From an uncultured Mycoplasma sp. (lineage in GTDB: Bacteria; Bacillota_I; Bacilli_A; RF39; UBA660), in assembly GCA_964616405.1 (NCBI GenBank), contig CAZTRE010000004.1, positions 1-64,000 of the forward strand: a DNA stretch of 64,000 bases, in the 5' to 3' direction. Below the pieces are notes generated by a model. It worked only from the letters and a program-made list of their open reading frames with translations, searched no databases and was not told the origin of the DNA. A program made the position numbers and the translations under genes. Of this stretch, positions 4,456 to 44,458 are shown piece after piece; within the stretch, counting starts at the first letter, position 1; each line of letters begins with the position of its first letter.

Positions 4456-4681
4456 ATAATTTGGTCTGTACTAAAATTACATCTTCTCCTATTTTAGTAA
4501 TGTCTTTCCACATAATTTGTGAATCAAGCTCCTTGTTTAAAGAAAACATTTTGCGTGATGATTCGAGAATAAGGGATTCCACCGAACCATCCTCTAAAAT
4601 ATTAACATCAATTATAGAGCCCACGTTCTTTCCATCTGTAATATTTATTATTTTTTTTGATTGAAGTTCAGAAAGTCGCAT
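4448..4681 (-). CDS. YlmC/YmxH family sporulation protein (PRC-barrel)
   Basis: 77 aa with LSELQSKKIINITDGKNVGSIIDVNILEDGSVESLIL, the canonical YlmC/YmxH PRC-barrel pattern. Confidence 0.75.
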   Translation of the reverse strand: MRLSELQSKKIINITDGKNVGSIIDVNILEDGSVESLILESSRKMFSLNKELDSQIMWKDITKIGEDVILVQTKLYE

Positions 4682-4723
4682 ACTATCACCTAATTAAATA
4701 TATGATTCTAGGGCCAATTTATT

Positions 4724-25697: not shown

Positions 25698-25748
25698 ATT
25701 ACTACTTCCTTTCTTTTTTTATTATAACCTAACTTTTTAAAAAAGTCA

Positions 25749-26531
25749 TTATTGATTTGAAATCAGTAAATTAAATTCATTACCATTAAACTTGTACAAC
25801 ATATCTATTGGTTTGTTAACACTATACCTTCCACAGCTGACAACTAATTCATATGTATTATCTGTATCTATATCCATAATAGCACTTAAGTATGGTTTAC
25901 AACCATTTGTACCAAAGTTTTTATCAACATCTGTATAAATTTTGTATATCTTATTATCTTTTACCATAAAGACAAAGGTAAATACTTTATCTGGTGTAAA
26001 GTCTAAGGCAAAGGCATTACTTACAAAATATAATGTCTCTTTTTTGCCATCTTTATCAATATCAATTGATACTTCTTGTGATACTGTGTATTTTGATGAT
26101 GTACTTATGCCATTTTCTTGAAGTACTTTATTTACATGATAGTAATTTCTAATATCTTTTAATTGAAAAGAGCTGACTTTTATATCATAATTGGAACGGA
26201 AAGCTAAGATACTACCATCTTTATTTATAGCTTTTTTATTCTCATCAAACATATACCATTTGCTACCATCATTCCAAAGATAAACTTCTCCAAATTCTTT
26301 ACCATCTAAAAACACTTTATAATCTAACCAATTTATACTATCAATTGTTTTGGGATTTGTGATATTTAGCCATTGTTTATCTGAATAGTTCCAAATAGTA
26401 CTATTTCCAACTATAATTGTAGTTGAGTCTTTGCTTTTAGCAAGATTATCTTTTCCAAAAGCAAAATACATTCCTATTGTAAAAACTATTAAAATTATTA
26501 ATAGCACGTAATATCTTGTTTTCTTTTTCAT
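25749..26531 (-). CDS. membrane-anchored extracellular protein, possible T4SS scaffold (VirB8/TcpC-position)
   Basis: N-terminal TM helix (YYVLLIILIVFTIGMYFAF) and an exported domain of about 230 aa. The functional guess rests only on its position between the hydrolase and the coupling protein. Confidence 0.3.
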   Translation of the reverse strand: MKKKTRYYVLLIILIVFTIGMYFAFGKDNLAKSKDSTTIIVGNSTIWNYSDKQWLNITNPKTIDSINWLDYKVFLDGKEFGEVYLWNDGSKWYMFDENKKAINKDGSILAFRSNYDIKVSSFQLKDIRNYYHVNKVLQENGISTSSKYTVSQEVSIDIDKDGKKETLYFVSNAFALDFTPDKVFTFVFMVKDNKIYKIYTDVDKNFGTNGCKPYLSAIMDIDTDNTYELVVSCGRYSVNKPIDMLYKFNGNEFNLLISNQ

Positions 26532-26534
26532 ATA

Positions 26535-28796: not shown

Positions 28797-28824
28797 TGTA
28801 CCACCACCTTACTTCTATACTAAA

Positions 28825-30615: not shown

Positions 30616-31166
30616 ACTGGCATCACTACTCCAAACTCAGTTGTACTTCCACCATTTAGGAAGTTATCTAAAACTATTCTTAAATCTGAATTACTTGCTT
30701 GTGCAGCAGTTAATCCACACGTTGCTAAACCATTAATTATCATTCTTACTCTTTTGGCTAAAATATCAGGGTCTTTAGACTTAAATAAGAAATAATATTC
30801 TGTATCAACAATATTATTATTGATGAAAGTTTGTCCTTTTTCAATGTCTTGTGCAATTAATTTTCTAATTGCTGGTGAACCAGCATCATTATAAAGTAGT
30901 TGTAATTGAGACATGTAAACAGAAATATCTACAGGTCGATCAGCTACTACTAACCAGAATTCAAAATCAATTGTATTATAGAAGTTTTTTAAACTTATTA
31001 ACATATTATCTTGAGCAATAGGATCTAAGATAAAAATGTTTTTTGGAGAAATTTTAACTCCAGTAATTTTAAAATTATCAGTTGTGATAATCATACTATT
31101 TTGGATACCTCTAACTGGTAACCATGCTTCTGTGGAACCATATCCACTACTTTTTTTTGTTGCCAC
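30612..31166 (-). CDS. VirB4-like T4SS ATPase, separate N-terminal domain ORF
   Basis: GTG start. WLPVRGIQNSMIITTDNFKITGVKISPKNIFILDPIAQDNMLISLKNFYNTIDFEFWLVV has the pattern of the N-terminal domain of Firmicute VirB4/TraE proteins. It ends at a TGA that overlaps the ATG of the next ORF (ATGA). Confidence 0.7.
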   Translation of the reverse strand: MATKKSSGYGSTEAWLPVRGIQNSMIITTDNFKITGVKISPKNIFILDPIAQDNMLISLKNFYNTIDFEFWLVVADRPVDISVYMSQLQLLYNDAGSPAIRKLIAQDIEKGQTFINNNIVDTEYYFLFKSKDPDILAKRVRMIINGLATCGLTAAQASNSDLRIVLDNFLNGGSTTEFGVVMPV

Positions 31167-31461
31167 TTTTATAACACCAACCCTTCCATATATAAGTTTG
31201 AGTATTAGTTAAAAACTCATACATTTCTATTAGTACATTTAATACATTATGATAATAAGGTAATGGGAACACTAAGAATCCCGTAATAACCGCTGGGCTC
31301 AACACCATTATTGTTACAAATGTTGAGCTAAGTGGCATAATTGCTAAAAATGTAAAAGTAATTAATATTCCTGTCCCAAATAATACCAAATCAAAGGGTT
31401 TAAACATACCCATAATTAATTTTCCTTTTTTCGTATTTGCAGGAATTAAATAGTTGTGCAC
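31147..31461 (-). CDS. PrgI-like / VirB3-like small membrane protein
   Basis: 104 aa. N-terminus IPANTKKGKLIMGMFKPFDLVLFGTGILITF followed by a second TM helix. It lies directly upstream of VirB4, as VirB3-type proteins do. Confidence 0.6.
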   Translation of the reverse strand: MHNYLIPANTKKGKLIMGMFKPFDLVLFGTGILITFTFLAIMPLSSTFVTIMVLSPAVITGFLVFPLPYYHNVLNVLIEMYEFLTNTQTYIWKGWCYKSGNKKK

Positions 31462-31512
31462 TATGTATCACACTCCTTTTAGTCTTCTATTATTCTTTTT
31501 AAAAACAAAGTC

Positions 31513-33465
31513 TTATGTACGTTTGTTAGTGACGTCTCCTTTGGATTTGAAATCTTTTACGTCAGTTTCAAATCTATATTTGCCACGAGAAGTTGCATTT
31601 TGAACATCTCTAATTGGAGCTCCAGTTTCATCAATAGGTAATTCGTCTGTAGTACCATCAGGATTTGATATTACACCTGTTATAACCTTACTAGGCGAAC
31701 GATAGGTTTTTGTATAAATATCAATAGGGCGTTGTCCATTACCAAGTAATTCTCGATTTTTGGCAGCTTTTTCATAAGCACTGTTAGCCTTAGCATACTT
31801 AGTTTGAGCTTCTTGGTAAGTGTCAAATGCCTGTAGATATTCTCGCTCAGCTGCTGCATCTGTAGGATTTTTGTGGAAAAGAGCCTCTTTAAGCTTCATA
31901 GCTCTTTCAGCTTTACCAGCTTCTGCCTGTAGAACATCGGCCTCTTGTTTAAGAGTGGCAATTTGATTTCTAGCGATTCCCATTTTTTCAGCTTGCTTTT
32001 CTGAAGTCTCAAAAGCCATACGATCTGTCATCTTTCCTAAGAAACCGCCATGAGCATTTTTATCACCAGTTCTGATTTGAGCTATCTGATCTCTGTTATG
32101 ACTCCATGAATCACCCCAGCCAAAGGCTTTTCCTTGTTTTTCTGCAGCAAGTGTACTATTAACACCATTAAGAGCTCCAGCAGCTAGACCTTTTAGTCCA
32201 CCGCCACCTATAGCCATAGCTGTTCCACCCATTATGGCAGCCATACCTAAATTTGAACCAGTACTTTTAATACCAAACGCATTCATAATGAACTTTGGTG
32301 CAATTTTAATAAAGAAGAACATTCCTATCCAAATAAAGATCATTGAAAGGATTCCAACTAGACCTTTAGCATTATTAATAACAACTCCATTTACAATCAT
32401 ATCTTGGATTAAGAATAATATAAAATATATGACTGCTAGATGTAAAAATAGTTCTAAGTAGGTTGTTGTTAAAGATTTTGTCCATGCTCCAAGTGCTCCA
32501 CCATCCTTACTAGGTTGAATGTTACTTATAATTGGTATTGGCGCAATTATTCTTAAAACAGCCAATTTAATGGAACGCATAGCAATTGTAATGATTTCTC
32601 CTAATAAAATCCATACAAAGACAACAGCGACAATAGTTGAAATTATCGGCATATAAGCAAAGACATATTTATCCCTACCAGATAATCTTTTGTATGTAGC
32701 CATAACTTTATCTAGTGCACCACCTTCCGGTGCTTCACAACTGGCATTAATTAAAGCCAAAATTTCATTTGGACTAGCATCATATGCGGTGTAAATATTC
32801 AAAGTATCTTCATCAATATATTCACAGACACGTGAATCGGGATTTGTTTCATCCTTGTCACCATCTGATTTTACATTAATTCTAACAAAGCCTTTTAGAA
32901 CAGTCGAAGTAAAAATATTAGATGACTGCTTGAGTTTAGCATTTTGTTTATCGGCACCTGTTAAAGTACTATCGTTAGTCGAGGTCCCGCCGGCAGTATT
33001 CTCGGTGGTTCCTAATATAAGACGCCCTAAAGTATTGTTTTCTAAGATTCTTGTTTGTAAGGAATATAATGTACCAAATAATAATCCGTTATTATTAAGT
33101 TGAATTTCATATTCTGTACGAGCTGCAGGGATATTAATTGGCGTTAATACTGCTAGTAAAACAAGTGCAGTAATAACCCTAGTTATGATATTACCGAAAC
33201 CATTCTTCTTATCTGTAAATGTATCTGGATTTAAGATTCCCTGAATAATGGTTATAGCTAATTTAAAAATCATAAATACACCAAGTATTAATTGAATACG
33301 ACCATACATGTTTCTAACTGTTTCATTTGAGAAAATATCAGCACTGGCAACATTAAATAGGATTTCATACATTATACCTAATAACCCATAAGCAACACGG
33401 TCTATCAATGCAAAAAGAGATCTAAATAGATCATTAATAGTATTAGCATTCATGAAGTCTGTCAT
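31513..33465 (-). CDS. VirB6/TrbL-like polytopic channel protein with a C-terminal coiled-coil domain
   Basis: 650 aa with at least 6 hydrophobic segments separated by a large exported loop. Its Gly-rich TM region (GMAAIMGGTAMAIGGGGLKGLAAGALNG) and its position match VirB6-like proteins of Gram-positive and Mollicute conjugative elements. Confidence 0.6.
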   Translation of the reverse strand: MTDFMNANTINDLFRSLFALIDRVAYGLLGIMYEILFNVASADIFSNETVRNMYGRIQLILGVFMIFKLAITIIQGILNPDTFTDKKNGFGNIITRVITALVLLAVLTPINIPAARTEYEIQLNNNGLLFGTLYSLQTRILENNTLGRLILGTTENTAGGTSTNDSTLTGADKQNAKLKQSSNIFTSTVLKGFVRINVKSDGDKDETNPDSRVCEYIDEDTLNIYTAYDASPNEILALINASCEAPEGGALDKVMATYKRLSGRDKYVFAYMPIISTIVAVVFVWILLGEIITIAMRSIKLAVLRIIAPIPIISNIQPSKDGGALGAWTKSLTTTYLELFLHLAVIYFILFLIQDMIVNGVVINNAKGLVGILSMIFIWIGMFFFIKIAPKFIMNAFGIKSTGSNLGMAAIMGGTAMAIGGGGLKGLAAGALNGVNSTLAAEKQGKAFGWGDSWSHNRDQIAQIRTGDKNAHGGFLGKMTDRMAFETSEKQAEKMGIARNQIATLKQEADVLQAEAGKAERAMKLKEALFHKNPTDAAAEREYLQAFDTYQEAQTKYAKANSAYEKAAKNRELLGNGQRPIDIYTKTYRSPSKVITGVISNPDGTTDELPIDETGAPIRDVQNATSRGKYRFETDVKDFKSKGDVTNKRT

Positions 33466-33493: not shown

Positions 33494-34000
33494 TTAGTGT
33501 AATCCACAAGTGGCATTTGATGTTATTCCAAAGATATCAAGTAATGCCATAACTAATTGTGGCAGGAAGAATAAACTTACCGCTAATAATAATCTTGTTA
33601 TTAATTTTTTTTGAGCTTTTTTCATTCCTTCATCATCACTTGTAATAATGACTTTAGCAAAATCAACTCCACTCATTACTACAACAATAAATGGTCCTAT
33701 TATCTTTAAATAATTTAAGATTTTTTGTAGTAGCCAGGCTACTGAATCTTCATCATTAACATTTCCTAGTAAACCATTTTCTCCACAATTTTGATTTTTA
33801 TTATATTCATCTAGCCACTCATCCATGTCTTTTTCAGTGGTTGGTGCATCTTCAAAAGATCTATAAACAAGGGCTGTATTTGTATATTGATATGAAAGAA
33901 TTGTTTTCTCACTTGATATTTCTTTAGCTAAAACATTGCTAGGTATAAATAAAGCAAAAAGTGCGAAGACAATTAAAAAGATTGTTTGCTTTGTTTTCAT
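33494..34000 (-). CDS. VirB2/TrbC-like hairpin membrane protein with a Sec signal peptide (paralog B)
   Basis: Signal peptide MKTKQTIFLIVFALFALFIPSNVLA/KE. The C-terminal two-TM hairpin IIGPFIVVVMSGVDFAKVIITSDDEGMKKAQKKLITRLLLAVSLFFLPQLV aligns with 34091-34420. Confidence 0.55.
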   Translation of the reverse strand: MKTKQTIFLIVFALFALFIPSNVLAKEISSEKTILSYQYTNTALVYRSFEDAPTTEKDMDEWLDEYNKNQNCGENGLLGNVNDEDSVAWLLQKILNYLKIIGPFIVVVMSGVDFAKVIITSDDEGMKKAQKKLITRLLLAVSLFFLPQLVMALLDIFGITSNATCGLH

Positions 34001-34090
34001 AAGATCACTCCAAAAATATTATATCATATTAAGTATAACAAATGAAAAAAAAAATAGCAATTTATTTACTATTTTTTGTTTTTTTCTATG

Positions 34091-34420
34091 TTATTTTGCT
34101 GCTTCCCAGCAAGCTTTCCATCCTTCAGTATTTCCAGTTCCACCTTTAGCTACAATATCCATGATAGCTTGAACTAAATATACTACGAAGAAAATTAATG
34201 CTGCATAGATACAACGTTTAATTAATCTACTTTGTGCTGCTTTAACTTCTTTTTCATCGCTTGCAATAACAGCTTTACCGAAATCAACAAATGCAAATAT
34301 GATTAATACGATTGGAATAACTATATATACAACTGGTAAAACTCCATTTTTAATAAGTCTTACTAATGGTAATAATCCTCCACATGCATCAATATCAGCT
34401 AATTGAATCAAATTTAACAT
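34091..34420 (-). CDS. VirB2/TrbC-like hairpin membrane protein (paralog A)
   Basis: 109 aa. The two-TM hairpin VYIVIPIVLIIFAFVDFGKAVIASDEKEVKAAQSRLIKRCIYAALIFFVVYLV shares the DF.K..I.SD.....KAQ..LI.R core with paralog B. Confidence 0.55.
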   Translation of the reverse strand: MLNLIQLADIDACGGLLPLVRLIKNGVLPVVYIVIPIVLIIFAFVDFGKAVIASDEKEVKAAQSRLIKRCIYAALIFFVVYLVQAIMDIVAKGGTGNTEGWKACWEAAK

Positions 34421-34475: not shown

Positions 34476-35549
34476 CTAGCGTCTAAACAAACCAAATATT
34501 TTACTATTACTTATTCCAACCTGTACAAGCCCTAATTTAGATAACAAACCGGTAATTGCTTCATTCTTTTTACGATCGTTCAAAGGTGGCAATGTATAGA
34601 AGAACTTAATACCTGCTTCATACTCTAATTCACTAACCTCTTTAGCTGTTAGTAACGATTGATTTAATATTATTTTTTGGTTTTTTAGTTTTGCAAAAAT
34701 ATTTCTATTTCTTCTTATTAATTTATTTAATCTTAATGTACTTGATTCTAATAAATATAGAACTTCATCACAAATAGTATTGTCATCATAATCGTTTAAA
34801 TCAATTAAAATAATAGACATACCATTATATTTTCCAATAACTCCCCTTAAATTATTCATATTTGTAGATATCATTGCTTTGTCGTTAAAAAATTGAAATT
34901 CATTTTTATTAACTTCTATAGCAATTACTTTATTTTCTCCAAATATTGATGCTAATTCTTTTTTTAACATATAAATCAAACTAGTAGAACCGGCATGGTC
35001 TGTTACTGATCTTAATCCTATTTTGATTGTTTTATTCATGATACTTTGTGATGCTTCAATGGTTGTTTGAACATCATCTTCAGGTATTTGAATTTGAACC
35101 GCACCAGTTTCATTTATCGATTCGTTAATGTTCTCAATTGGTCGTGGTGGTGATGGTATATTACCTCCACCCATTTTAAGAATATGAGCAACATCTTCAT
35201 ACGAGTTTGATTTTGTTAATAAGTATTTTACACCTTCAAGATTAGTAGTAAAATTGTAAATACCCATTGTTACTAATTGAGATAAGAAATTAGGAGTACA
35301 AATACTATTTCCTTCTGGAATAAAGAAAATAGTTTTATCAGAATCTAAGCCTTCCGCTAAAATCTTAAACATTTTTACATCTGTATAACCTTTGATAGCT
35401 GTAACATCCAAGACCATTTTATTATAGAAAAAGTTTTTAAACATTTCAACTATTTCATTTGCTCCAAATGATCCTGTTATACTTTTTATGACATCAATGT
35501 CTAGTGTGGCGATTAGTGCTTGTTGCTCATTAGCAATAATTACATTCAC
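34476..35549 (-). CDS. TadZ/CpaE-like protein (receiver-like N-domain and ParA/MinD-like domain with a degenerate P-loop)
   Basis: The N-terminal 110 aa are receiver-like (MNVIIANEQQ..., VLDVTAI). The C-terminal domain has ParA/MinD-like strand order (IGLRSVTDHAGSTSLIYMLKKELA ... IILIDLND ... IILNQS), but TDHAGST stands where KGGxGKT/S is expected. Confidence 0.5.
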   Translation of the reverse strand: MNVIIANEQQALIATLDIDVIKSITGSFGANEIVEMFKNFFYNKMVLDVTAIKGYTDVKMFKILAEGLDSDKTIFFIPEGNSICTPNFLSQLVTMGIYNFTTNLEGVKYLLTKSNSYEDVAHILKMGGGNIPSPPRPIENINESINETGAVQIQIPEDDVQTTIEASQSIMNKTIKIGLRSVTDHAGSTSLIYMLKKELASIFGENKVIAIEVNKNEFQFFNDKAMISTNMNNLRGVIGKYNGMSIILIDLNDYDDNTICDEVLYLLESSTLRLNKLIRRNRNIFAKLKNQKIILNQSLLTAKEVSELEYEAGIKFFYTLPPLNDRKKNEAITGLLSKLGLVQVGISNSKIFGLFRR

Positions 35550-35555
35550 TTACAA

Positions 35556-36011
35556 TCACCATCCTATAACTATTGGTTTAGTATCACCAGATACTTGAAA
35601 GATTTTAAGTCCTGGTAATATCTTATTAATAATAGGTATATCAATATTTATTTGCGTAACGATTTTAAAATAAGCTTTTTGCTTTGTATCTGATGTACTA
35701 GAATTGCTTGGTTTAGCAATTTCAACTTTTTTAAAGCAATAGCCATTACCACAAGTATAGCCTTCTTCTGTTAAATCAAAATCTGGGGCATCGTAACCAA
35801 GTTGCTTCATATACTCAAGAATTTGAGAATGACATTTGTTGGCAGCATTAATTTCACATTGTCCCTCATATTGCTCAAATGTTGAAATTATTTTATTTTT
35901 AACTCTGAATGCTTTCGTATAGTTAACATTAAAAGCTAAATAGCCTGAAACTAAAACTAAGAAAACAACAATAATTACCAAGTTTGCTACTCCACCAAAA
36001 GCATCACGCAT
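35556..36011 (-). CDS. pilin-like (TadE-like pseudopilin) protein
   Basis: N-terminus MRDAFG/GVANLVIIVVFLVLVSGYLAF: a short charged leader ending in Gly, then a hydrophobic helix of about 22 aa and a Cys-containing globular domain. AGAAGGTG RBS 7 nt upstream. It lies directly after the Flp-like gene. Confidence 0.5.
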   Translation of the reverse strand: MRDAFGGVANLVIIVVFLVLVSGYLAFNVNYTKAFRVKNKIISTFEQYEGQCEINAANKCHSQILEYMKQLGYDAPDFDLTEEGYTCGNGYCFKKVEIAKPSNSSTSDTKQKAYFKIVTQINIDIPIINKILPGLKIFQVSGDTKPIVIGW

Positions 36012-36038: not shown

Positions 36039-36209
36039 TTATTTTTCTACAATGATAACACCAGTTGGCGATCCACCACTGATATTATTCCATTGAGCAT
36101 TTAATGCATTTTGAATATTTGGCCACATAACCCAGAAGAATCCAATTACTGCAGCAATTGCTATCAATGTAATAACAGTTAAGTTTAATTCACCTGTCGC
36201 ATCTTTCAT
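36039..36209 (-). CDS. unannotated 56-aa Flp-like small pilin candidate
   Basis: Absent from the ORF track, presumably because it is under 60 aa. Translation: MKDATGELNLTVITLIAIAAVIGFFWVMWPNIQNALNAQWNNISGGSPTGVIIVEK. It has a short leader ending in Gly and a hydrophobic helix, and lies between tadC-like and tadE-like genes. An in-frame TAA sits immediately upstream of the ATG. Confidence 0.6.
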   Translation of the reverse strand: MKDATGELNLTVITLIAIAAVIGFFWVMWPNIQNALNAQWNNISGGSPTGVIIVEK

Positions 36210-36242
36210 TTACATTACACATCCTTTCATTATTCTAAATTT

Positions 36243-36271
36243 ATTATAGCAAAATTATATTTGTTAAACAA
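36243..36271 (-). promoter_or_regulatory. sigma-A-type promoter for the Flp-like pilin gene
   Basis: On the minus strand: TTGTTT (36271-36266), a 17-nt spacer, then TATAAT (36248-36243). This is about 35 nt upstream of the pilin ATG and just after the tadC-like stop codon. Confidence 0.5.
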
Positions 36272-36287
36272 CTTTTTTTAATTAACT

Positions 36288-37097
36288 TTACATACTGAAC
36301 ATCATCATCATTGCAATTAATATTACTAACATAACACCGACACCAGTTACCACTAACATAACCATTGTCTGTGATTCCATGAAGCTTAGACGTTCTTTAT
36401 ATTTAGTTTCTCTAGCTTTATTCTGTAATGCAGATACTGTTTTTGAAAACATCATTAAACGTTCTTGCTTTTTCTCTTGAGAACCTAAACCTAAACGATA
36501 TAGTAAACGCATCATACGCATTGAATCTCTTACTGGATAGGTATTAGCAAATTCCATATATGGATCAATTGTTGCATCACCGGCATTAATACGATCAATT
36601 AATTTTCTTAATCCTGGCTTAAAAATATCAGGGGCATCATCAATTGATTTACCTAATGCAACTGGTACAGTATAATGTTGAATTAAAATTTCTAAACTCT
36701 TTAAATAGTATGGCAACATTATATCAATTTCATGTAAATGTTTTTTATAATATGATTTTAGTTGGGTATATGATGATTTAAATACTACAAAAGCAACTAC
36801 GGCTGCTAAAGCAATATATAAGAAAATTTTAGAACTAAAACCTCCAGCAGAATCTCCTCCACTTAAAGCAAAAGCTAAGACCATAAAGAAAGTTAAAATC
36901 CCATAGGTTACTCTCTTCATATATAATTGCTTTACATCTACACTTTCTCCATATTTGGCATATACTAAGAATTCATAATCTTTTTCTTTTAGTGCTTCTA
37001 AGTACTTTTCGTTATCAGCAAAAAATTTATTCTTATCAATGGTATTGTTATATACGAATACAAATATTAAAATAACTCCTATTAATACTATTTCCAT
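36288..37097 (-). CDS. TadC-like platform protein (type II secretion system F domain)
   Basis: 269 aa with TM helices at the N-terminus, the middle and the C-terminus. The cytoplasmic T2SSF-like helical domain reads LPYYLKSLEILIQHYTVPVALGKSIDD...LRKLIDRINAGDATIDPYMEFANTYP. Its start overlaps the stop of the tadB-like gene. Confidence 0.55.
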   Translation of the reverse strand: MEIVLIGVILIFVFVYNNTIDKNKFFADNEKYLEALKEKDYEFLVYAKYGESVDVKQLYMKRVTYGILTFFMVLAFALSGGDSAGGFSSKIFLYIALAAVVAFVVFKSSYTQLKSYYKKHLHEIDIMLPYYLKSLEILIQHYTVPVALGKSIDDAPDIFKPGLRKLIDRINAGDATIDPYMEFANTYPVRDSMRMMRLLYRLGLGSQEKKQERLMMFSKTVSALQNKARETKYKERLSFMESQTMVMLVVTGVGVMLVILIAMMMMFSM

Positions 37098-37999
37098 TAT
37101 TCAGCACCTACATTCTCGTTATAATATTTTTCTCCTCTTAAAAGGAAATAAGTATTACATATTATAATAAAGTGTAATAATACTTGAATATACCATTTTT
37201 CTAGAAGAATAAGATATGTTTCATCTCCTAATAAAAATTGTACTAACATTACAAGCAAGTATAATGTAATACCAAATGATAAGAAATTTTTATGGAAGGA
37301 TGCTCTTTCTATTCTATCTCGATATACGCTTTCAATTAACATATCAATATCTAGTTGCATATTATCAAGCGAATCAGCTGAGTTTCTAGCACCTTCTTTG
37401 GTAATTTGTAAAAATAATTGATGCATATTTTTAACTATATAGTATGGATATAGTCCACTCATATATTCTAAGGCTTCATCAATTGTACCATTTTCATAGG
37501 ACATTTCAATCATTCGATTAACATCACTTAATACGGGATCTTCTAAGATTCCAGAATTTCTTACACCTTCAAGAGATTTTACAAATGATTGAGTTGTGGC
37601 AAACTCCATAATAACATTAGATGTATATACTTGAATTTGCTCAAAAATAAATTCAGAATATACTCTTTTACATCTTAAATAAGCTAGGTATGGTACAAAG
37701 GCTATTGCTACACAAGCATAAAAAATACTAATAACAATATTATAGAAATATAAGTATGTTACACCTCCGGCAAAACCAGCAAATATTATTATTTGCATAA
37801 TATATTGTTTAGTTGTATATTCTTGACCTAATTGTTTGGCTTTTTCTCTTACTATTTTAAAGGAGAAGGGTGCGTATTTATCGTATATAGTTTGAACTTG
37901 ATTAGTTATAAATTTACCGATATTTTGACCTTTATAGTTTCTATATAGAAAAATACCAACAATAATTACTATGATTATTAATAATTCTTCAAAATACAT
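37097..37999 (-). CDS. TadB-like platform protein (type II secretion system F domain)
   Basis: 300 aa. T2SSF-like segment SFVKSLEGVRNSGILEDPVLSDVNRMIEMSYENGTIDEALEYMSGLYP...LFLQITKEGARNSADSL flanked by TM helices. Confidence 0.55.
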   Translation of the reverse strand: MYFEELLIIIVIIVGIFLYRNYKGQNIGKFITNQVQTIYDKYAPFSFKIVREKAKQLGQEYTTKQYIMQIIIFAGFAGGVTYLYFYNIVISIFYACVAIAFVPYLAYLRCKRVYSEFIFEQIQVYTSNVIMEFATTQSFVKSLEGVRNSGILEDPVLSDVNRMIEMSYENGTIDEALEYMSGLYPYYIVKNMHQLFLQITKEGARNSADSLDNMQLDIDMLIESVYRDRIERASFHKNFLSFGITLYLLVMLVQFLLGDETYLILLEKWYIQVLLHFIIICNTYFLLRGEKYYNENVGAE

Positions 38000-38011
38000 A
38001 AATACTCCTTT

Positions 38012-39412
38012 CTACGCTTGTAAACTTTCATTAATTGTTGAAACAGGGATTTGCGGTGCAGTTTGATTTTTTTCAACAATTTGAATTGGAGGAGATGACA
38101 TTAATTGCTCTTTTGGTGCTTGCAATGTAGGAGTCGGTTGAATGGTTGGTGCTGGCTGTGTTTCTAATGGAGTAATTACTGGTTGAGCTGCTACTTGTGT
38201 AGTTAATGGAGCATTTGGTTGAGTATTAGATATAACACTTGGCTGCTCAACTTGCTTTTCGTTAGAAGTTGCACCATTTATTTGTATACCTGGTATGGTT
38301 TCTTCTGTTGTATCCCCTTTACTAAAATCGGCTTGTTGTGTTATAGTCATTTCCTCAGGCAATTTATCAATAATACTTTGAACATCAATATTTTGATTTT
38401 CTAAATATTGTAATAAATGAGCACTTGGTTTTCTCATCATTGGCTCTCTACCAAATAATTTTTGATAGATAATTCGCGATTGTGGAACGTTATTTTCATC
38501 AACATAAAATTCACATACTTCATCTAATTCACGATGAAATTTTCCACGTTCCTTACTATAGTAAGCTTTGATGTGAACGCCTATTTGAATATAACGATAA
38601 ATAGTTGTTAAAAACTGAGCAACATCTAAGTCAGTTTCCATCAAACTGTAAAGACGATATGGAATAGCTGAGGCTTTATCCGCATGAATTGTAGAAAGAA
38701 TATTGTGTCCTGATGAAATTGAGTTACGTACGGCTGATACTGCTTCAGCACTACGTACTTCAGAAAGTAGAATCCATTTTGGATTCTGACGCATACAAGT
38801 TACTAATACATCTGTATAACTTGCGACATTGTTTGTCTTCATCGCAACAATATCTCTTTGAGGAAAGATTTTATCTAAGTGAAGCTCTAATGTATCTTCA
38901 ATTGTAATTATTTTTTCGCTTGTTTTAGTATGGCTAGCTAGATATTTTACAAATTCAGTTTTACCAGAGCCGGTTTCTCCAGAAACCATGATATTACAAT
39001 GTCCTTGAACACATTTAATTAATAAGTCATGAACATCTTGGGTAAAATATTCATCTTTAATAAGTTTATCTTTTTCTAGACGAATTTTAGCAGGTGTTTT
39101 ACGTATAACTAAAGCAATGCCATTAGTGGCAACGGATTGATGAACGAAATTAAGACGTAATTCTGCAGATTCTGCATCTAGGAAAGGCTTAGCATTATTA
39201 AAAGTGGTTCCCATTACGTTAGAACATTGAAAAGCCAATTTTTCAACAAACTCTTGATTAGCTCCTTCTACTTCAACTCGTAGAGAACCTTGAGTTAGTG
39301 AACGTATCCAAATTTGGCCTCCATTATCATACGAAATATCTGTTATATCATCATTATCTAGTAGTGGACGGAATGGTCCAAAGTCTAATTTATCGAAGAT
39401 ATTCTCATTCAT
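38012..39412 (-). CDS. CpaF/TadA-like secretion ATPase (T2SS-E/VirB11 superfamily) with a Gln/Pro/Thr-rich C-terminal tail
   Basis: Walker A MVSGETGSGKTEF, the Asp-box/Walker B region ILLSEVRSAEA and a His box STIHA. The N-terminal domain is ITDISYDNGGQIWIR. The last 100 aa or so are low-complexity (QPNAPLTTQVAAQPVITPLETQPAPTIQPTPTLQAP). Confidence 0.8.
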   Translation of the reverse strand: MNENIFDKLDFGPFRPLLDNDDITDISYDNGGQIWIRSLTQGSLRVEVEGANQEFVEKLAFQCSNVMGTTFNNAKPFLDAESAELRLNFVHQSVATNGIALVIRKTPAKIRLEKDKLIKDEYFTQDVHDLLIKCVQGHCNIMVSGETGSGKTEFVKYLASHTKTSEKIITIEDTLELHLDKIFPQRDIVAMKTNNVASYTDVLVTCMRQNPKWILLSEVRSAEAVSAVRNSISSGHNILSTIHADKASAIPYRLYSLMETDLDVAQFLTTIYRYIQIGVHIKAYYSKERGKFHRELDEVCEFYVDENNVPQSRIIYQKLFGREPMMRKPSAHLLQYLENQNIDVQSIIDKLPEEMTITQQADFSKGDTTEETIPGIQINGATSNEKQVEQPSVISNTQPNAPLTTQVAAQPVITPLETQPAPTIQPTPTLQAPKEQLMSSPPIQIVEKNQTAPQIPVSTINESLQA

Positions 39413-39454: not shown

Positions 39455-40249
39455 TTATTGTTCGGTCCAAACGGTAACTCTGTTAATCCAGTCTTTTAAT
39501 TGTTCACTACTAATTTCAAGATCTCCTGGTTCATCTTTTAAGCTTTCATTTGTTGGAACTGGTATTAATGTTGATTCATATGTTCTTAAATATTCTGCTT
39601 TCTTTAATAAAACATAATACTCTTCAGGTACAGCAAATACGATCATAGCTGGAGTTCTTTGCTCATCAAGATTTGCAAAAACTGGTTGACCACTTGCATC
39701 TTTTACAGCAAGTACTTTAACATTAGATAATAATTTACCTAACATAATCTTATCAGCATCAGCTGTTGCTTGTTCGCCTTCGGATAATCTATTTACCGCT
39801 TTTAAGTAAATATCAATATAATTACCTGGGTAGATTGAATTACCATATGTAGTAGCTGTAGTAACAGACATATTGTATAAAACGTATCCTTTTGGATAAG
39901 TAAGAATAATATTGGCTGGTAATTGTTCCTTTTCTACAACTGTTCGTTGATAAAATAAACTTCCTGCTGGTATAACTGTATCAGCACTTGAATATTTATC
40001 AATTACTTGATTTTGAGCTGTTAAAACATTTCCTTCTAACATTGAAGGTGGAACTGCTCGGGTACCAACCATATCGGCTGTTATTTGTGTTCCTGGATTG
40101 ATTTGCACTTTAGCATATGGAACATTTACTGGATTTATTGCAGATTGTACTCTCATGTTATATGCAACATATAAGATTATAATAGCGGCAATTATTCCAA
40201 TTACGGTTACTGTATTTTTATTTTGAAAAAATTTCTTTAATCCTGTCAC
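39455..40249 (-). CDS. CpaB/RcpC-like pilus assembly protein (TM helix, SAF domain, CpaB C-domain)
   Basis: GTG start. TM helix VTVIGIIAAIIILYVAY, SAF-like VPYAKVQINPGTQITADMVGTRAVP, and C-domain GNYIDIYLKA...LLSNVKVLAVKD. Confidence 0.65.
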   Translation of the reverse strand: MTGLKKFFQNKNTVTVIGIIAAIIILYVAYNMRVQSAINPVNVPYAKVQINPGTQITADMVGTRAVPPSMLEGNVLTAQNQVIDKYSSADTVIPAGSLFYQRTVVEKEQLPANIILTYPKGYVLYNMSVTTATTYGNSIYPGNYIDIYLKAVNRLSEGEQATADADKIMLGKLLSNVKVLAVKDASGQPVFANLDEQRTPAMIVFAVPEEYYVLLKKAEYLRTYESTLIPVPTNESLKDEPGDLEISSEQLKDWINRVTVWTEQ

Positions 40250-40278: not shown

Positions 40279-40761
40279 CTATTTCTTTTTGTTGCTTCTT
40301 TCATCTATTGATTTACCTAAATCATTATTAGGATCTGCCAAAGCATTTTTAGTAAATTCATCATCTGTATAATCTGTTTCGATAATAGCATCAACATTTG
40401 TGGAAATATTTGCTGCTTCTCCAGAAAAGCTTAATACGGTTAATGAATCAACTTTAACACTTACCTTTGGAGGTACCTCGTTAATATCATAAAAACTAAT
40501 ATCATATGTACGAGTATTATCTACATTATCGGCAAATCGACGAAGGAAGCTCTCAACGAACTTCTCTTTGTCAATTCTTATTAATGAGTTAAGTCGATAA
40601 TATTCTACATCAACGGCATCTTCCATTGCAGCTTCTGTTGTTTCTTTTACAAGGTAGTAGTCTAATTCTCCACCTGTTGAGTAGTTACTAATTACATTAA
40701 TTAGTAATAATGCAATTACACTTAATAGGATAACACCTACTGTTAACATTCCTTTATTCAT
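40279..40761 (-). CDS. pilin-like or anchored accessory protein
   Basis: 160 aa. N-terminus MNKG/MLTVGVILLSVIALLLINVI is a short basic leader ending in Gly followed by a hydrophobic helix. No family recognised. Confidence 0.35.
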   Translation of the reverse strand: MNKGMLTVGVILLSVIALLLINVISNYSTGGELDYYLVKETTEAAMEDAVDVEYYRLNSLIRIDKEKFVESFLRRFADNVDNTRTYDISFYDINEVPPKVSVKVDSLTVLSFSGEAANISTNVDAIIETDYTDDEFTKNALADPNNDLGKSIDERSNKKK

Positions 40762-44454: not shown

Positions 44455-44458
44455 CTAC

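What the first reader, a model, noticed from the sequence alone, without database searches (positions are those of the whole stretch)
36039..36271. Unannotated 56-aa Flp-like pilin gene with its own consensus-like promoter inside the cluster
The 277-nt gap in the ORF track between the tadC-like and tadE-like genes contains a minus-strand ORF at 36209-36039. It is not in the supplied track, presumably because it is under 60 aa. It encodes MKDATGELNLTVITLIAIAAVIGFFWVMWPNIQNALNAQWNNISGGSPTGVIIVEK.

Its size, its short leader ending in Gly, its long hydrophobic helix and its position (tadC, then pilin, then tadE-like) are those of a Flp-type major pilin. However, it lacks the canonical G/xxxxEY processing motif: Glu is at +1 and there is no Tyr.

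A near-consensus promoter (TTGTTT, 17 nt, TATAAT) sits immediately upstream, inside what otherwise looks like one long operon. That fits a structural subunit needed in large excess.
Basis: seen in the sequence. Interest (0 to 1): 0.65.

Follow-up and report, generated by a model that had tools for sequence, protein, structure and literature searches.

The report
Conserved small pilin-like gene, own promoter
A previously unnamed 56-residue gene in an uncultured gut bacterium is real, under strong selection and driven by its own conserved promoter. It most likely encodes the building block of a highly divergent type IV (Tad/archaeal-like) pilus that sits next to a Gram-positive type IV secretion system, but it is not a true Flp pilin.

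Summary
The ORF at 36209-36039 (-) exists exactly as described.

**It is a real gene.** It has 834 database homologues. It is intact in all 83 syntenic loci and is found in 188 reference genomes of RF39-like gut "Bacilli/Tenericutes" MAGs. dN/dS is 0.12 overall and 0.045 for codons 2-30, at dS ~1.

**The promoter is real.** TTGnnn-17 nt-TGnTATAAT plus a long Shine-Dalgarno sequence is present in 81/81 loci, against 0.5% of control windows.

**It is not an Flp-family member.** There is no Flp_Fap hit in 66 divergent members, hhalign against genuine Flp gives E=0.2, and there is no G/xxxxEY motif. No prepilin peptidase lies in the window or within ±10 kb in 89 loci.

**It still behaves like a pilin.**
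- It has a six-residue leader ending in an invariant Gly, then one long helix.
- Its C-terminal tail is hypervariable and sometimes Cys-rich.
- Some relatives carry tandem copies.
- The ~150-aa downstream proteins share its N-terminal motif.
- It always follows a CpaB-like protein, a CpaF/FlaI-like ATPase and two paralogous membrane proteins that weakly resemble TadB/TadC.

**Verdict:** a new, divergent family of putative type IV filament pilins in a module coupled to a monoderm T4SS. Filament formation and leader processing are inferred, not shown.

The parts
36039..36209 (-). 56-aa putative major pilin. It has a leader MKDATG, an invariant Gly6-Glu7, a hydrophobic helix and a variable C-terminal tail.
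   Evidence: sequence. (834 homologues). (intact in 83 loci; dN/dS 0.12). (AlphaFold: one helix over residues 10-44, pLDDT >90 in the core). (563 clusters in the wider family).
36243..36271 (-). Internal promoter: -35 TTGTTT (36271-36266), 17-nt spacer, extended -10 TGCTATAAT (36251-36243).
   Evidence: sequence; the same architecture is present in 81/81 homologous loci with a 17-nt spacer in 80/81, against 0.5% of control windows.
36218..36228 (-). Long Shine-Dalgarno sequence GAAAGGATGTG, 8 nt upstream of the ATG.
   Evidence: GAAAGG/AAAGGA is found 15-22 nt upstream of the start in 81/81 loci.
35556..36011 (-). 151-aa putative minor pilin. Its N-terminus MRDAFG-GVANLVIIVVFLVLV shares the M-[KR]-[DE]-A-x-G motif with the small protein.
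   Evidence: motif conserved in all loci; some lineages have two paralogues. (hhalign of the N-termini, E=0.0012). (only weak TadE/Tad hints).
36288..37097 (-). 269-aa polytopic membrane protein, a putative platform protein (TadC-like by position).
   Evidence: 81% column identity across loci. (hhalign against genuine TadB/TadC: E=0.0028 over the T2SSF core). (paralogy with the 300-aa protein, E=0.0015). No Pfam or PDB hit.
37097..37999 (-). 300-aa polytopic membrane protein, a putative platform protein (TadB-like by position).
   Evidence: E=0.021 against genuine TadB/TadC, co-linear over 164 columns. (all-alpha model, but pLDDT only 52). No Pfam or PDB hit.
38012..39412 (-). 466-aa secretion ATPase of the CpaF/TadA/FlaI/VirB11 superfamily, with a variable low-complexity C-terminal tail.
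   Evidence: PF00437, 1.5e-28.. (best PDB matches: CpaF 7e-20, FlaI 4e-19, VirB11 3e-13). (closest plasmid homologues: Enterococcus pZB18 and B. subtilis pLS20 'tadA').
39455..40249 (-). 264-aa CpaB/RcpC-like protein (SAF + RcpC domains, N-terminal TM segment).
   Evidence: PF16976 at 30.2 bits against a cut-off of 28.8; PF08666 at 21.2 against 21. (TIGR03177, 2.9e-12, below its cut-off).
40279..40761 (-). 160-aa DUF5411 protein with an N-terminal membrane anchor. It is always the first gene of the module.
   Evidence: PF17424, 3.6e-48. (conserved position). PMC9523054 links DUF5411 with CpaF and PilC/GspF operons in gut Clostridia.
34476..35549 (-). 357-aa conserved module protein of unknown function (~330 aa in relatives).
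   Evidence: always follows the ~150-aa genes. No family or PDB hit.
33494..34420 (-). Two small membrane proteins (109 aa at 34091-34420; 168 aa at 33494-34000) with weak similarity to PF18895 T4SS_pilin. A second conserved internal promoter lies at 34060-34032.
   Evidence: PF18895: E=2e-4 and 0.13, both below cut-off. (promoter pattern 2-2.5 kb downstream of the small ORF in 69/81 loci). They travel with the pilus-like module even where VirB4/VirD4 are absent.
23391..33465 (-). Adjacent Gram-positive T4SS genes: a 650-aa polytopic protein, a 104-aa protein, a 184-aa protein (TraC-like in homologues), VirB4 (28825-30615), a SpoIID-domain hydrolase (26535-28796), a 260-aa protein and VirD4 (23391-25697).

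Best explanation
The 56-aa protein is the major subunit (pilin) of a very divergent type IV filament machine of the Tad/archaeal branch. The machine operates in a single-membrane gut bacterium and is genetically coupled to a VirB4/VirD4 type IV secretion system.

**Proposed mechanism**
1. The gene is transcribed both by operon read-through and from its own strong extended -10 promoter. A long Shine-Dalgarno sequence drives translation, so the subunit is made in large excess (shown: conserved signals; inferred: expression level).
2. The protein inserts in the membrane N-in/C-out through its single hydrophobic helix (inferred from sequence and the model).
3. The six-residue leader M-K-x-A-x-G acts as a class-III-type signal. 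It is probably removed after the invariant Gly6 by a prepilin peptidase encoded elsewhere, leaving Glu at +1 (inferred; not shown).
4. The CpaF/FlaI-like ATPase, acting through the two paralogous platform-like membrane proteins, extracts subunits and stacks their conserved N-terminal helices into a filament core. The hypervariable C-terminal tail is left exposed (inferred by analogy).
5. The ~150-aa proteins that share the same N-terminal motif act as minor or initiating pilins (inferred).
6. The filament most likely mediates cell-cell or cell-surface contact for the neighbouring T4SS, as thin type IV pili do for IncI plasmids (speculative).
For: **Real, strongly selected gene**
- 834 homologues.
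- Intact in 83/83 loci, with relatives in 188 reference genomes.
- dN/dS 0.12, and 0.045 for codons 2-30.

**Pilin-like anatomy**
- A short leader with Lys2 and an invariant Gly6, followed by ~22 hydrophobic residues.
- AlphaFold predicts one long helix over residues 10-44 at pLDDT >90.
- The N-terminal ~30 residues are almost invariant across 563 clusters. The C-terminal tails are hypervariable in length (43-107 aa in total) and often Cys-rich, as expected for an exposed head.
- A divergent branch carries tandem duplicate small genes.

**Shared N-terminal motif with the downstream proteins**
- The one or two downstream ~150-aa proteins share the motif M-[KRQ]-[DE]-[AS]-x-G followed by a hydrophobic helix (hhalign E=0.0012). 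This is the major/minor pilin pattern.
- These two are the only proteins in the 64-kb window with this pattern.

**Context**
- The gene always follows DUF5411, a CpaB/RcpC-like protein (above the Pfam cut-off), an ATPase closest to CpaF and FlaI and two membrane proteins.
- The two membrane proteins look like paralogues (E=0.0015) and weakly match genuine TadB/TadC over the T2SSF core (E=0.0028; E=0.02).

**Expression signals**
- The promoter and Shine-Dalgarno sequence are conserved in 81/81 loci, against a 0.5% background.
- The divergent branch has the analogous TTGnnn-17-TATAAT plus AAAGGAGG.

**Weak class III signal similarity**
- Recurrent sub-threshold hits to archaeal type IV pilin N-terminal/class III signal models: PF07790 in 14/66 members (best E 0.0075) and TIGR04205 in 4/66. 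Gly6 aligns near the start of the model.

**Separability**
- The module also occurs without adjacent VirB4/VirD4 (L086/L087). It is therefore a self-contained unit rather than a T4SS sub-part.
Against: - **No peptidase found.** No A24/GxGD motif occurs in the 64-kb window or within ±10 kb of the gene in 89 loci, 1.5 Mb in total (Pfam columns). Whole genomes could not be searched.
- **Atypical signal.** The acidic residue is at +1, not +5. There is no Tyr and no Flp motif.
- **No significant match to any pilin family.** This covers Pfam and NCBIfam, PDB sequences, Foldseek and genuine Flp.
- **Platform identity is weakly supported.** Profile E-values are only 0.003-0.02. The AlphaFold model of the 300-aa protein was poor (pLDDT 52) and its fold search gave noise.
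- **A single predicted helix is generic.** Any small single-pass membrane protein would look the same.
- **No experimental evidence.** There is no transcript, peptide or filament for any member. The literature on the architecturally similar pLS20 genes 36-41 calls them 'unknown' and states that no pilus components are encoded (PMC8557374).
Confidence: 0.55

Rival explanations
1. It is a non-polymerising, unprocessed single-pass membrane subunit of the ATPase/platform or T4SS complex, for example an assembly, anchoring or gating factor. The conserved N-terminal MKxATGE motif is a cytoplasmic docking peptide rather than a cleaved leader.
For: - No prepilin peptidase lies near the gene in any locus.
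- There is no Glu at +5 and no match to any pilin family.
- The extreme invariance of residues 1-30 would also fit a tight protein-protein interface.
- The pLS20 family has a 47-aa single-TM protein of unknown function in the equivalent region, and no pilus has been reported there.
Against: - Hypervariable tails, often Cys-rich and up to ~60 residues long, sit on an invariant N-terminal helix, and some relatives carry tandem paralogues. This is typical of exposed polymer subunits and is not expected for a stoichiometric accessory protein.
- A dedicated strong promoter plus a long Shine-Dalgarno sequence, conserved in 81/81 loci, argues for production in excess of the machine.
- The same N-terminal motif on the 150-aa proteins mirrors major/minor pilin sets.
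Confidence: 0.25
2. It is a bona fide Flp-family (Tad) pilin, cleaved by a TadV/CpaA peptidase at a G/xxxxEY-type site.
For: It has a similar size and a single helix. It lies next to a CpaF-like ATPase and a CpaB-like protein.
Against: - No PF04964 hit in the protein or in 66 divergent relatives at E<=1.
- hhalign against genuine Flp gives E=0.2 over 8 columns.
- The motif after Gly is E-L-N-[LM]-T-V, with no Glu5-Tyr6, in all 82 distinct sequences.
- No TadV is present in the cluster.
- The only 'hybrid' with a canonical Flp leader (P0144) sits on a 729-bp contig at 0.59x coverage that is evidently chimeric.
Confidence: 0.03
3. It is the VirB2/TrbC-type conjugative pilin of the adjacent T4SS.
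For: It is a small hydrophobic protein encoded next to VirB4/VirD4 genes.
Against: - VirB2-type pilins have two hydrophobic helices. This protein has one.
- It has no PF04956 or PF18895 hit.
- The weak PF18895 hits belong to the separate 109-aa and 168-aa genes.
- The gene travels with the ATPase/platform module even where VirB4/VirD4 are absent.
Confidence: 0.05
4. It is a small hydrophobic toxin, bacteriocin or signalling peptide that happens to lie in the operon.
For: It is small, has its own promoter and has a hydrophobic core.
Against: - Its position is fixed in a rigidly syntenic module across 188 species and across a divergent branch.
- There is no double-glycine or lanthipeptide-type leader and no cognate immunity, export or modification genes.
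- Its N-terminal motif is shared with the neighbouring 150-aa structural-looking proteins.
- It is absent from viral contigs.
Confidence: 0.04
5. It is a chance ORF in an AT-rich intergenic spacer; the gap is regulatory DNA or an RNA gene.
For: Short ORFs and promoter-like hexamers are common in ~28% GC DNA.
Against: - dN/dS is 0.12 with abundant synonymous change.
- Start and stop are conserved in 83/83 loci.
- Independent pipelines call it as a gene.
- There is no Rfam match in the gap.
Confidence: 0.01

Closest known systems
Flp/Fap pilins of Tad (tight adherence) pili (type IVc; PF04964), e.g. Caulobacter PilA and Aggregatibacter Flp1
   Same: - Tiny subunit (~50-90 aa) that is essentially one hydrophobic helix.
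- Encoded with a CpaF/TadA-type ATPase, a CpaB/RcpC-like protein, two paralogous polytopic membrane proteins and larger pilin-like proteins sharing its N-terminus (as TadE/TadF do).
- Tandem pilin paralogues occur in some lineages, like flp1/flp2.
   Different: - No sequence or profile similarity.
- The leader is only 6 residues long.
- After Gly the sequence is E-L-N-[LM]-T, not xxxxEY.
- No TadV peptidase or recognisable TadZ is present in the cluster.
- The neighbours do not match the T2SSF or TadE models at significant levels.
- The module is fused to a Gram-positive T4SS.
Archaeal type IV pilins / class III signal peptide proteins (PF07790 Pilin_N, TIGR04205) with FlaI-type ATPases
   Same: - A short charged leader ending in Gly/Ala followed by a hydrophobic helix.
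- The ATPase scores almost as well against FlaI as against CpaF.
- Recurrent weak hits of family members to these models.
   Different: - All hits are far below the curated cut-offs.
- The organism is a bacterium.
- No PibD/FlaK-type peptidase was found nearby.
Type IVa / competence (ComGC) pilins
   Same: - A leader of about 6 residues with Lys and a terminal Gly (compare MKxxKG|FTLIE).
- A conserved N-terminal helix with an essential Glu.
- Helix-breaking Gly/Pro further along the helix. Here these are Gly23 and Pro30, nearly invariant. The comparison with G14/P22 of T4a pilins is from my own knowledge and was not tested.
   Different: - Glu is at +1 rather than +5.
- There is no globular alpha-beta head domain.
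- There is no PilB/PilC/PilD set.
pLS20-family and Enterococcus pZB18 conjugation operons (genes 36-41 around the 'putative VirB11', gene 37)
   Same: - These carry the closest plasmid homologues of the ATPase (E 3e-40 and 5e-38).
- The layout is parallel: a surface adhesin, a small N-terminal-TM protein, the ATPase, two ~250-aa membrane proteins, a 120-aa N-terminal-TM protein, a 47-50-aa single-TM protein, then VirD4/VirB6-like/VirB4.
- pLS20 gene 38 gives a full-length but sub-threshold T2SSF match (E=0.19).
   Different: - Apart from the ATPase, homology is not demonstrable (best E=0.005).
- The pLS20 small protein (MLDQNADR...) lacks the MKxATGE motif.
- Those systems are on plasmids with relaxases. 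This one is chromosomal and conserved across the lineage.
IncI (R64) thin pilus and PAPI-1: type IV pili encoded alongside a T4SS to promote mating contacts
   Same: A type IV filament module is genetically coupled to a VirB4/VirD4 secretion system (concept described in PMC12857230).
   Different: - Those are diderm systems with canonical PilS/PilV pilins, a PilU peptidase and recognisable PilQ/R ATPase/platform proteins.
- No monoderm equivalent is described in that review. It states that Gram-positive T4SSs lack VirB11-type ATPases.
Uncharacterised CpaF + PilC/GspF + DUF5411 operon predicted in Roseburia/Ruminococcus/Eubacterium (Miller et al. 2022, PMC9523054)
   Same: It shares DUF5411 and a CpaF-type ATPase in an 8-9 gene operon of gut Firmicutes, flagged only computationally as secretion-related.
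   Different: - That report names no pilin.
- Its membrane protein is recognisable as PilC/GspF, whereas the ones here are not.
- No T4SS linkage was described.

Membership tests
Flp/Fap pilin family (PF04964; Tad major pilin) | Significant match to the Flp_Fap profile or to genuine Flp sequences | tested here: not met
   No hit at E<=1 for the window protein or for any of 66 divergent relatives. hhalign of the family against two annotated Flp pilins gives E=0.2 over 8 columns.
Flp/Fap pilin family (PF04964; Tad major pilin) | Flp motif: cleavage-site Gly followed by xxxxEY in a hydrophobic stretch | tested here: not met
   After the invariant Gly6 the sequence is E-L-N-[LM]-T-V-[IV]-T in all 82 distinct sequences. 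There is no Glu at +5 and no Tyr at +6.
Flp/Fap pilin family (PF04964; Tad major pilin) | Dedicated prepilin peptidase TadV/CpaA (A24 family, GxGD) in the locus or genome | tested here: not met
   No Peptidase_A24 domain or GxGD[..][KR] motif occurs in the 64-kb window or within ±10 kb in 89 loci. The rest of the genomes could not be searched, so absence from the genome is not established.
Flp/Fap pilin family (PF04964; Tad major pilin) | Small (~45-90 aa) protein consisting mainly of one hydrophobic alpha-helix | tested here: met
   56 aa. AlphaFold predicts a helix over residues 10-44 with pLDDT >90 in the core.
Type IV filament (TFF) superfamily pilins in general | Class III signal: short charged leader ending in Gly (or Ala), directly followed by ~20 hydrophobic residues | tested here: met
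   M1, K2 and G6 are invariant or nearly so, followed by L8-W29. In the window, only this protein and the 151-aa neighbour show the pattern.
Type IV filament (TFF) superfamily pilins in general | Conserved Glu at +5 of the mature protein | tested here: not met
   If cleavage follows Gly6, then Glu is +1 and +5 is Thr. Glu7 itself is invariant in 82/82 sequences, so an essential acidic residue exists but at a different position.
Type IV filament (TFF) superfamily pilins in general | Major and minor subunits share the N-terminal signal/helix module | tested here: met
   The one or two downstream ~150-aa proteins start M-[KRQ]-[DE]-[AS]-x-G followed by a hydrophobic helix in all loci. hhalign of the N-termini gives E=0.0012.
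Type IV filament (TFF) superfamily pilins in general | Encoded with a PilB/GspE/TadA/FlaI-family hexameric ATPase | tested here: met
   PF00437 at 1.5e-28. Best PDB matches are CpaF 7e-20 and FlaI 4e-19. The ATPase is syntenic in all loci.
Type IV filament (TFF) superfamily pilins in general | Encoded with a polytopic platform protein of the PilC/GspF/TadB-TadC/FlaJ (T2SSF) family | tested here: inconclusive
   No Pfam or PDB sequence hit. hhalign against genuine TadB/TadC gives E=0.0028 (269-aa family) and E=0.021 (300-aa family), co-linear over the T2SSF core. The two proteins look paralogous (E=0.0015). The AlphaFold model is too poor to use (pLDDT 52).
Type IV filament (TFF) superfamily pilins in general | Leader cleaved (and N-terminus often methylated) by an A24 peptidase; subunits polymerise into an extracellular filament | not testable with these tools
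   This needs N-terminal proteomics, EM or cryo-ET, or at least whole-genome searches and multimer modelling.
Archaeal type IV pilin N-terminal domain (PF07790) / class III signal (TIGR04205) | Score above the curated cut-off of the family model | tested here: not met
   All matches are sub-threshold. PF07790 hits 14/66 members (best E 0.0075), and the two hits with reported scores reach 11.5-13.9 bits against a cut-off of 25.2. TIGR04205 hits 4/66 (best E 0.01). This is a recurrent weak resemblance only.
VirB2/TrbC or PF18895 T4SS pilins | Two hydrophobic helices separated by a short loop; match to PF04956 or PF18895 | tested here: not met
   It has a single helix and no hit. The weak PF18895 hits belong to the neighbouring 109-aa and 168-aa proteins.
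   No hit for the window protein. PF13400 hits 2/21 family members (best E 0.035). hhalign against three annotated TadE/TadG proteins gives E=0.0053, but over only 31 C-terminal residues.

The most novel reading that the evidence does not exclude
The module is a previously unrecognised class of monoderm type IV filament. Its pilins use a new kind of signal (M-K-x-A-x-G|E, with the acidic residue at +1). They are either processed by a non-A24 enzyme or assembled unprocessed. The filament is an integral, chromosomally fixed partner of a relaxase-less T4SS across the whole RF39-like lineage of reduced-genome gut bacteria. It would be a contact-and-transfer apparatus for DNA, protein or nutrient exchange with other cells, comparable in spirit to the T4SS that epibiotic Patescibacteria depend on, rather than a conjugative element. 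The same logic would then apply to the unexplained genes 36-41 of pLS20-type plasmids. That would contradict the textbook statement that Gram-positive T4SSs lack both pili and VirB11-type ATPases.
Probability: 0.2. Interest if true: 0.85.

Novelty: new variant of a known kind. Interest (0 to 1): 0.62.

Why it matters
- **Unnamed but widespread.** The family has no name, no Pfam/NCBIfam model and no literature. Yet it is present in at least 188 species-level genomes of abundant uncultured gut and rumen bacteria and in 563 sequence clusters overall. It is among the most conserved and probably most highly expressed genes of its cluster.
- **A new branch of type IV filaments.** If it is a pilin, it defines a branch with a non-canonical signal. 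It would also show that a CpaF/FlaI-type pilus module is coupled to monoderm T4SSs. A 2025 field review says Gram-positive T4SSs 'universally lack VirB11 homologs' and describes such couplings only for diderms.
- **A testable hypothesis for pLS20.** It suggests a function for the long-unexplained genes 36-41 of the pLS20 plasmid family, which is genetically tractable.
- **A surface marker.** It offers a surface-exposed, hypervariable marker for a lineage that has resisted cultivation.
- **An annotation lesson.** Length cut-offs of 60 aa hide conserved structural genes.

Tried and rejected
1. **Pfam and NCBIfam scans of the 56-aa protein:** no hits at E<=1.
2. **Profile search of the family against PDB sequences:** only generic transmembrane matches, E>0.2.
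3. **Foldseek of the single-helix model against the PDB:** nothing, E=7.
4. **AlphaFold of the 300-aa membrane protein.** Only 75-83%-identical sequences could be supplied, giving pLDDT 52. Foldseek returned noise, with E>1.
5. **The last large-database search, using the 300-aa family profile.** It returned only close relatives with no Pfam annotation, so no bridge to T2SSF was obtained.
6. **P0144, an apparent natural hybrid with a canonical Flp leader (…KGQTLVEYVLI…).** Rejected as an assembly chimera. It sits on a 729-bp contig at 0.59x coverage and is followed by unrelated ribosomal and ligase fragments.
7. **Homology between the window module and pLS20 genes 38, 39 and 41:** not demonstrable (E=0.15, 0.0047 and 0.14). 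Only the ATPase and the layout are shared.
8. **PDB sequence searches with the 357-aa and 151-aa proteins:** nothing.
9. **Rfam scan of the gap:** no RNA family.
10. **Viral contig scan:** no relatives.
11. **Literature searches** for RF39, DUF5411, pLS20 pili and Gram-positive Tad/T4SS couplings found no description of this protein.
12. **Taxonomy of the divergent Cys-rich branch:** could not be obtained, because the cluster look-up gave no names.
13. **First control regex for the promoter.** It mis-specified the spacer (last lines) and was redone correctly.
Full report
**1. The observation**

It lies in a 276-nt gap between a 269-aa gene (36288-37097) and a 151-aa gene (35556-36011).

The quoted promoter is there: TTGTTT at 36271-36266, a 17-nt spacer, and TATAAT at 36248-36243.
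- An extended -10 TG at 36251-36250.
- A long Shine-Dalgarno sequence, GAAAGGATGTG (36228-36218), 8 nt before the ATG. It matches the ideal GAAAGGAGGTG at 10 of 11 positions. That ideal is recalled from knowledge of the 16S rRNA 3' end and was not tested here.

On the window alone the promoter is not significant. The consensus scan finds promoter-like sites at the shuffle rate in this ~28-30% GC DNA (57 versus 48.9±8.4).

**2. Is it a gene?**

Yes.
- A search of the large protein collection gave 834 hits, the best at E~1e-24. All are 47-71 aa long, and the sources call them only 'hypothetical' or 'unknown'.
- Named sources include Mycoplasma sp. CAG:877 and Candidatus Faecimonas. These are the RF39-like, reduced-genome gut "Bacilli/Tenericutes". 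The RF39 assignment is my inference from those names.
- A scan of one genome per species found relatives in 188 genomes, and 80 loci were retrieved.
- In all 83 homologous loci the ORF is intact and starts at the same M/V-K-[ADE]-A-[TS]-G-E-L.
- Codon-level analysis shows abundant synonymous change on invariant residues. Nei-Gojobori estimates over 3197 pairs give dN 0.119 and dS 0.966, a ratio of 0.12. The ratio is 0.045 for codons 2-30 and 0.33 for codons 31-44.

**3. The promoter**

- In 81 of 81 loci with enough upstream sequence I find TTGnnn, then 17 nt (80/81), then TGnTATAAT. The -10 hexamer is TATAAT in 74 loci, TATACT in 6 and TACAAT in 1. It lies 29-55 nt before the ATG, followed by GAAAGG/AAAGGA.
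- The same pattern occurs in 149 of 28,570 control 100-nt windows of the same loci, or 0.5%.
- Synonymous sites in the adjacent coding sequence are near saturation, so this is a strong phylogenetic footprint.
- A divergent branch of the family keeps an analogous TTGnnn-17-TATAAT plus AAAGGAGG.
- No terminator-like site separates the gene from its neighbours. The promoter therefore adds to operon read-through rather than isolating the gene.
- Rfam finds no RNA family in the gap.

**4. Anatomy of the protein**

*Close relatives*
- Invariant: M1, K2, G6, E7, L8, L10, T11, V12, T14, A17, I18, A20, F24, F25, W26, W29, I32, N37, Q39, W40.
- Nearly invariant: G23 and P30.
- The last 10-25 residues vary in sequence and length.

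*Predicted structure*
- AlphaFold predicts a single helix over residues 10-44, with pLDDT >90 for residues ~11-40 and flexible ends.

*Wider family*
- An exhaustive profile search of 1.84 billion cluster representatives finds 563 clusters at E<=1e-3 and 118 at E<=1e-10.
- All share MK[EAD]A[TS]GE[LV]x[LM]T[VL][IV]T..AI[AG]A. Their tails range from a few to ~60 residues and often contain 4-6 cysteines.
- An invariant N-terminal helix with a hypervariable, probably extracellular, C-terminus is the signature of pilin families. That statement rests on established knowledge of type IV pilins and is an analogy, not a test.

**5. Context**

*The window*
- It is chromosomal. greA, a rhodanese-domain gene, rmuC, a Trp/Tyr-type class I tRNA synthetase gene, trigger factor, lon and sporulation-type genes flank the cluster.
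- No relaxase, integrase or A24 peptidase is present in the window.

*Gene order on the minus strand*

| Order | Gene product | Evidence |
|---|---|---|
| 1 | Surface proteins and a sortase | |
| 2 | DUF5411 | PF17424, 3.6e-48 |
| 3 | CpaB/RcpC-like protein | above the Pfam cut-offs |
| 4 | 466-aa secretion ATPase | |
| 5 | 300-aa membrane protein | |
| 6 | 269-aa membrane protein | |
| 7 | **The 56-aa gene** | |
| 8 | 151-aa protein | |
| 9 | 357-aa protein | |
| 10 | Two small proteins weakly like PF18895 | |
| 11 | T4SS block: large polytopic protein, VirB4, SpoIID-domain hydrolase, VirD4 | |

This order is rigid in all retrieved loci.

*The ATPase*
- By sequence it is closest to CpaF (7e-20) and archaeal FlaI (4e-19), ahead of VirB11 (3e-13).
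- Among plasmids its nearest relatives are on Gram-positive conjugative plasmids, Enterococcus pZB18 at 3e-40 and B. subtilis pLS20 'tadA' at 5e-38. These are ahead of proteobacterial CpaF (~1e-20) and VirB11/TrbB (1e-12 to 1e-17).

*The divergent branch*
- The same module carries two tandem small genes (both MKEATGELNMTV…, with Cys-rich tails) and two ~150-170-aa genes.
- In two contigs it is followed by uvrA and lgt instead of VirB4/VirD4.
- The ATPase-to-330-aa block is therefore a self-contained module that is often, but not always, joined to a T4SS.

**6. A shared N-terminal signal**

- The 151-aa protein begins MRDAFG-GVANLVIIVVFLVLV.
- Across all loci, the one or two ~150-aa proteins begin M-[KRQ]-[DE]-[ASG]-x-G followed by a hydrophobic helix.
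- Their N-termini align with the small-protein family from residue 1 (hhalign E=0.0012).
- In the 64-kb window only these two proteins have a short leader, then Gly, then a hydrophobic stretch.
- This is what a set of major and minor pilins recognised by one processing and assembly system looks like.
- DUF5411 proteins have a different N-terminus (MNK[GA]MLTVGII… or MK[NE]..WGYWLI…). I treat that as a plain membrane anchor.

**7. Membership tests**

| Question | Result |
|---|---|
| Small protein = Flp? | Rejected. No PF04964 hit in the protein or in 66 divergent relatives. No profile similarity to two genuine, annotated Flp pilins (E=0.2). No xxxxEY motif. |
| Prepilin peptidase nearby? | None in the window, or within ±10 kb of the gene in 89 loci (1.5 Mb). 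|
| Membrane proteins = TadB/TadC? | Inconclusive. No Pfam or PDB sequence hit. Profile-profile against six genuine TadB/TadC proteins gives co-linear alignments over the T2SSF core at E=0.021 (300-aa) and E=0.018-0.0028 (269-aa). The two families align to each other at E=0.0015. |
| pLS20 gene 38 = T2SSF? | A full-length but sub-threshold T2SSF match (E=0.19). |
| Small protein = archaeal type IV pilin? | Recurrent but sub-threshold hits to PF07790 (14/66 members, best E 0.0075) and TIGR04205 (4/66). Gly6 aligns near the start of the model. |
| 151-aa protein = TadE? | Only faint hints: PF13400 in 2/21 members, and E=0.005 over 31 C-terminal residues. |

The structural route failed. The AlphaFold model of the 300-aa protein had pLDDT 52, and both Foldseek searches were uninformative.

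**8. Literature**

- I found no description of this protein or of the module in this lineage.
- Val-Calvo et al. 2021 (PMC8557374) list pLS20 genes 36-41 as 'unknown' and note the surprising VirB11 homologue, gene 37. They state that no pilus components are encoded.
- The 2025 T4SS nomenclature review (PMC12857230) states that Gram-positive T4SSs 'universally lack VirB11 homologs'. It describes T4P-T4SS couplings only for IncI plasmids and PAPI-1.
- Miller et al. 2022 (PMC9523054) flagged a CpaF + PilC/GspF + DUF5411 operon in gut Clostridia as an uncharacterised, computationally predicted secretion-related system.
- pLS20 and pZB18 share the layout of the present module. Apart from the ATPase, I could not demonstrate homology.

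**9. Interpretation**

The best-supported reading (confidence ~0.55) is that the 56-aa protein is the major subunit of a highly divergent Tad/archaeal-type type IV filament coupled to a monoderm T4SS.
- Production is boosted by its own promoter and strong RBS.
- It carries a class-III-like signal (MKxATG|E…) that it shares with the downstream minor-pilin-like proteins.

*Shown:* the gene is real, selection is strong, the expression signals are conserved, the protein has a single-helix architecture with a variable tail, the N-terminal motif is shared, and synteny with a CpaB-like protein and a CpaF/FlaI-like ATPase is rigid.

*Inferred:* cleavage after Gly6, the platform identity of the two membrane proteins, polymerisation, and a role in cell contact for the T4SS.

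The main rival (~0.25) is an unprocessed, non-polymerising membrane subunit of the machine. That reading would explain the missing peptidase and the misplaced Glu. It explains less well the hypervariable Cys-rich tails, the tandem paralogues and the dedicated strong promoter.

Canonical Flp, a VirB2-type pilin, a toxin or peptide, and a chance ORF are each unlikely (section 7).

**10. Novelty and score**

- The thing is real and un-named.
- It works most like a Tad/archaeal pilin but fails the tests for membership of Flp.
- I rate it a new variant of a known kind: a new putative pilin family and module variant within the type IV filament superfamily.
- Interest is 0.62. It is surprising to specialists in T4SS and type IV pili. 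It opens a tractable question for the pLS20-type systems. It concerns abundant uncultured gut bacteria.
- The central functional claim remains inferential, and a key component, the peptidase, is unaccounted for.

Noticed in passing
window 34032-34060 (-), upstream of the 168-aa gene at 33494-34000: A second internal promoter of the same extended -10 type (TTGCTA-17-TGTTATACT). It is conserved 2-2.5 kb downstream of the small ORF in 69/81 loci. It sits before a small membrane protein with a weak PF18895 'T4SS pilin' hit (E=2e-4, below cut-off). So two small hydrophobic proteins in the cluster have private promoters.
   Followed up: partly
window 23391-47827 and flanks: - The whole T4SS plus pilus-like cluster is chromosomal and flanked by housekeeping genes (greA, rmuC, a Trp/Tyr-type tRNA synthetase gene, trigger factor, lon).
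- No relaxase or integrase was detected in the window.
- It is rigidly syntenic in 80+ species.
- It looks like a lineage-core apparatus rather than an integrative conjugative element.
   Followed up: partly
L086/L087 10001-10567; L088/L089 (loci): - A divergent branch has two tandem small pilin-like genes (89-93 aa and 78-89 aa). Both start MKEATGELNMTV and have tails with 4-6 Cys.
- Two ~150-170-aa paralogues follow.
- In L086/L087 the module is followed by uvrA and lgt, not VirB4/VirD4.
- The taxonomy of this branch is unknown.
   Followed up: partly
L022, L038, L045, L050, L053, L054, L062, L064-L066, L068-L070, L072, L073, L075-L077, L081, L083 (downstream of the small gene): About a quarter of the close-relative loci carry two ~150-aa paralogues instead of one after the small gene, reminiscent of TadE/TadF pairs.
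   Followed up: no
window 38012-39412 (-), C-terminal ~110 residues of the ATPase: The ATPase ends in a Pro/Gln/Thr-rich low-complexity tail. Across the RF39-like loci the protein varies from 391 to 625 aa, entirely through this tail, and the divergent branch (367-370 aa) lacks it.
   Followed up: no
L090 (pLS20, NC_015148.1 9839-13334) and L091 (pZB18): pLS20 genes 36-41 and their Enterococcus counterparts mirror the module: an N-terminal-TM protein, the ATPase, two membrane proteins, a 120-aa N-terminal-TM protein, then a 47-50-aa single-helix protein (MLDQN[AT]DR…). Gene 38 gives a full-length sub-threshold T2SSF hit (E=0.19). These plasmids may encode an unrecognised type IV filament-like device.
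   Followed up: partly
window 36039-36209 (-), residues 7-11 and 42-44: The invariant E-L-N-[LM]-T matches the bacterial N-glycosylation sequon D/E-X-N-X-S/T, and N-I-S at residues 42-44 is an N-X-S/T sequon. The sequon definition is from my own knowledge. No oligosaccharyltransferase was looked for.
   Followed up: no
window 40779-46261 (-): Directly upstream of the module lie a sortase (282 aa), a 952-aa Cys-rich protein with a signal peptide and a 600-aa Ig-like surface protein. A large surface or adhesin-type protein also precedes the ATPase module in pLS20, pZB18 and the divergent branch.
   Followed up: no
window 3745-5503 (-) and 60677-61486 (+): Sporulation-associated genes are present (YunB, and a sigma-70-family factor of unassigned role) in a lineage often labelled 'Mycoplasma/Tenericutes'. 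An IS-type rve integrase lies at 60677-61486.
   Followed up: no
L084 (729-bp contig carrying P0144): This is an apparent fusion of a canonical Flp leader (MRLKLNNKGQTLVEYVLI…) to this family's C-terminal half. It lies on a 0.59x-coverage contig followed by unrelated gene fragments and is almost certainly an assembly chimera. It is a caution for small-protein databases.
   Followed up: yes
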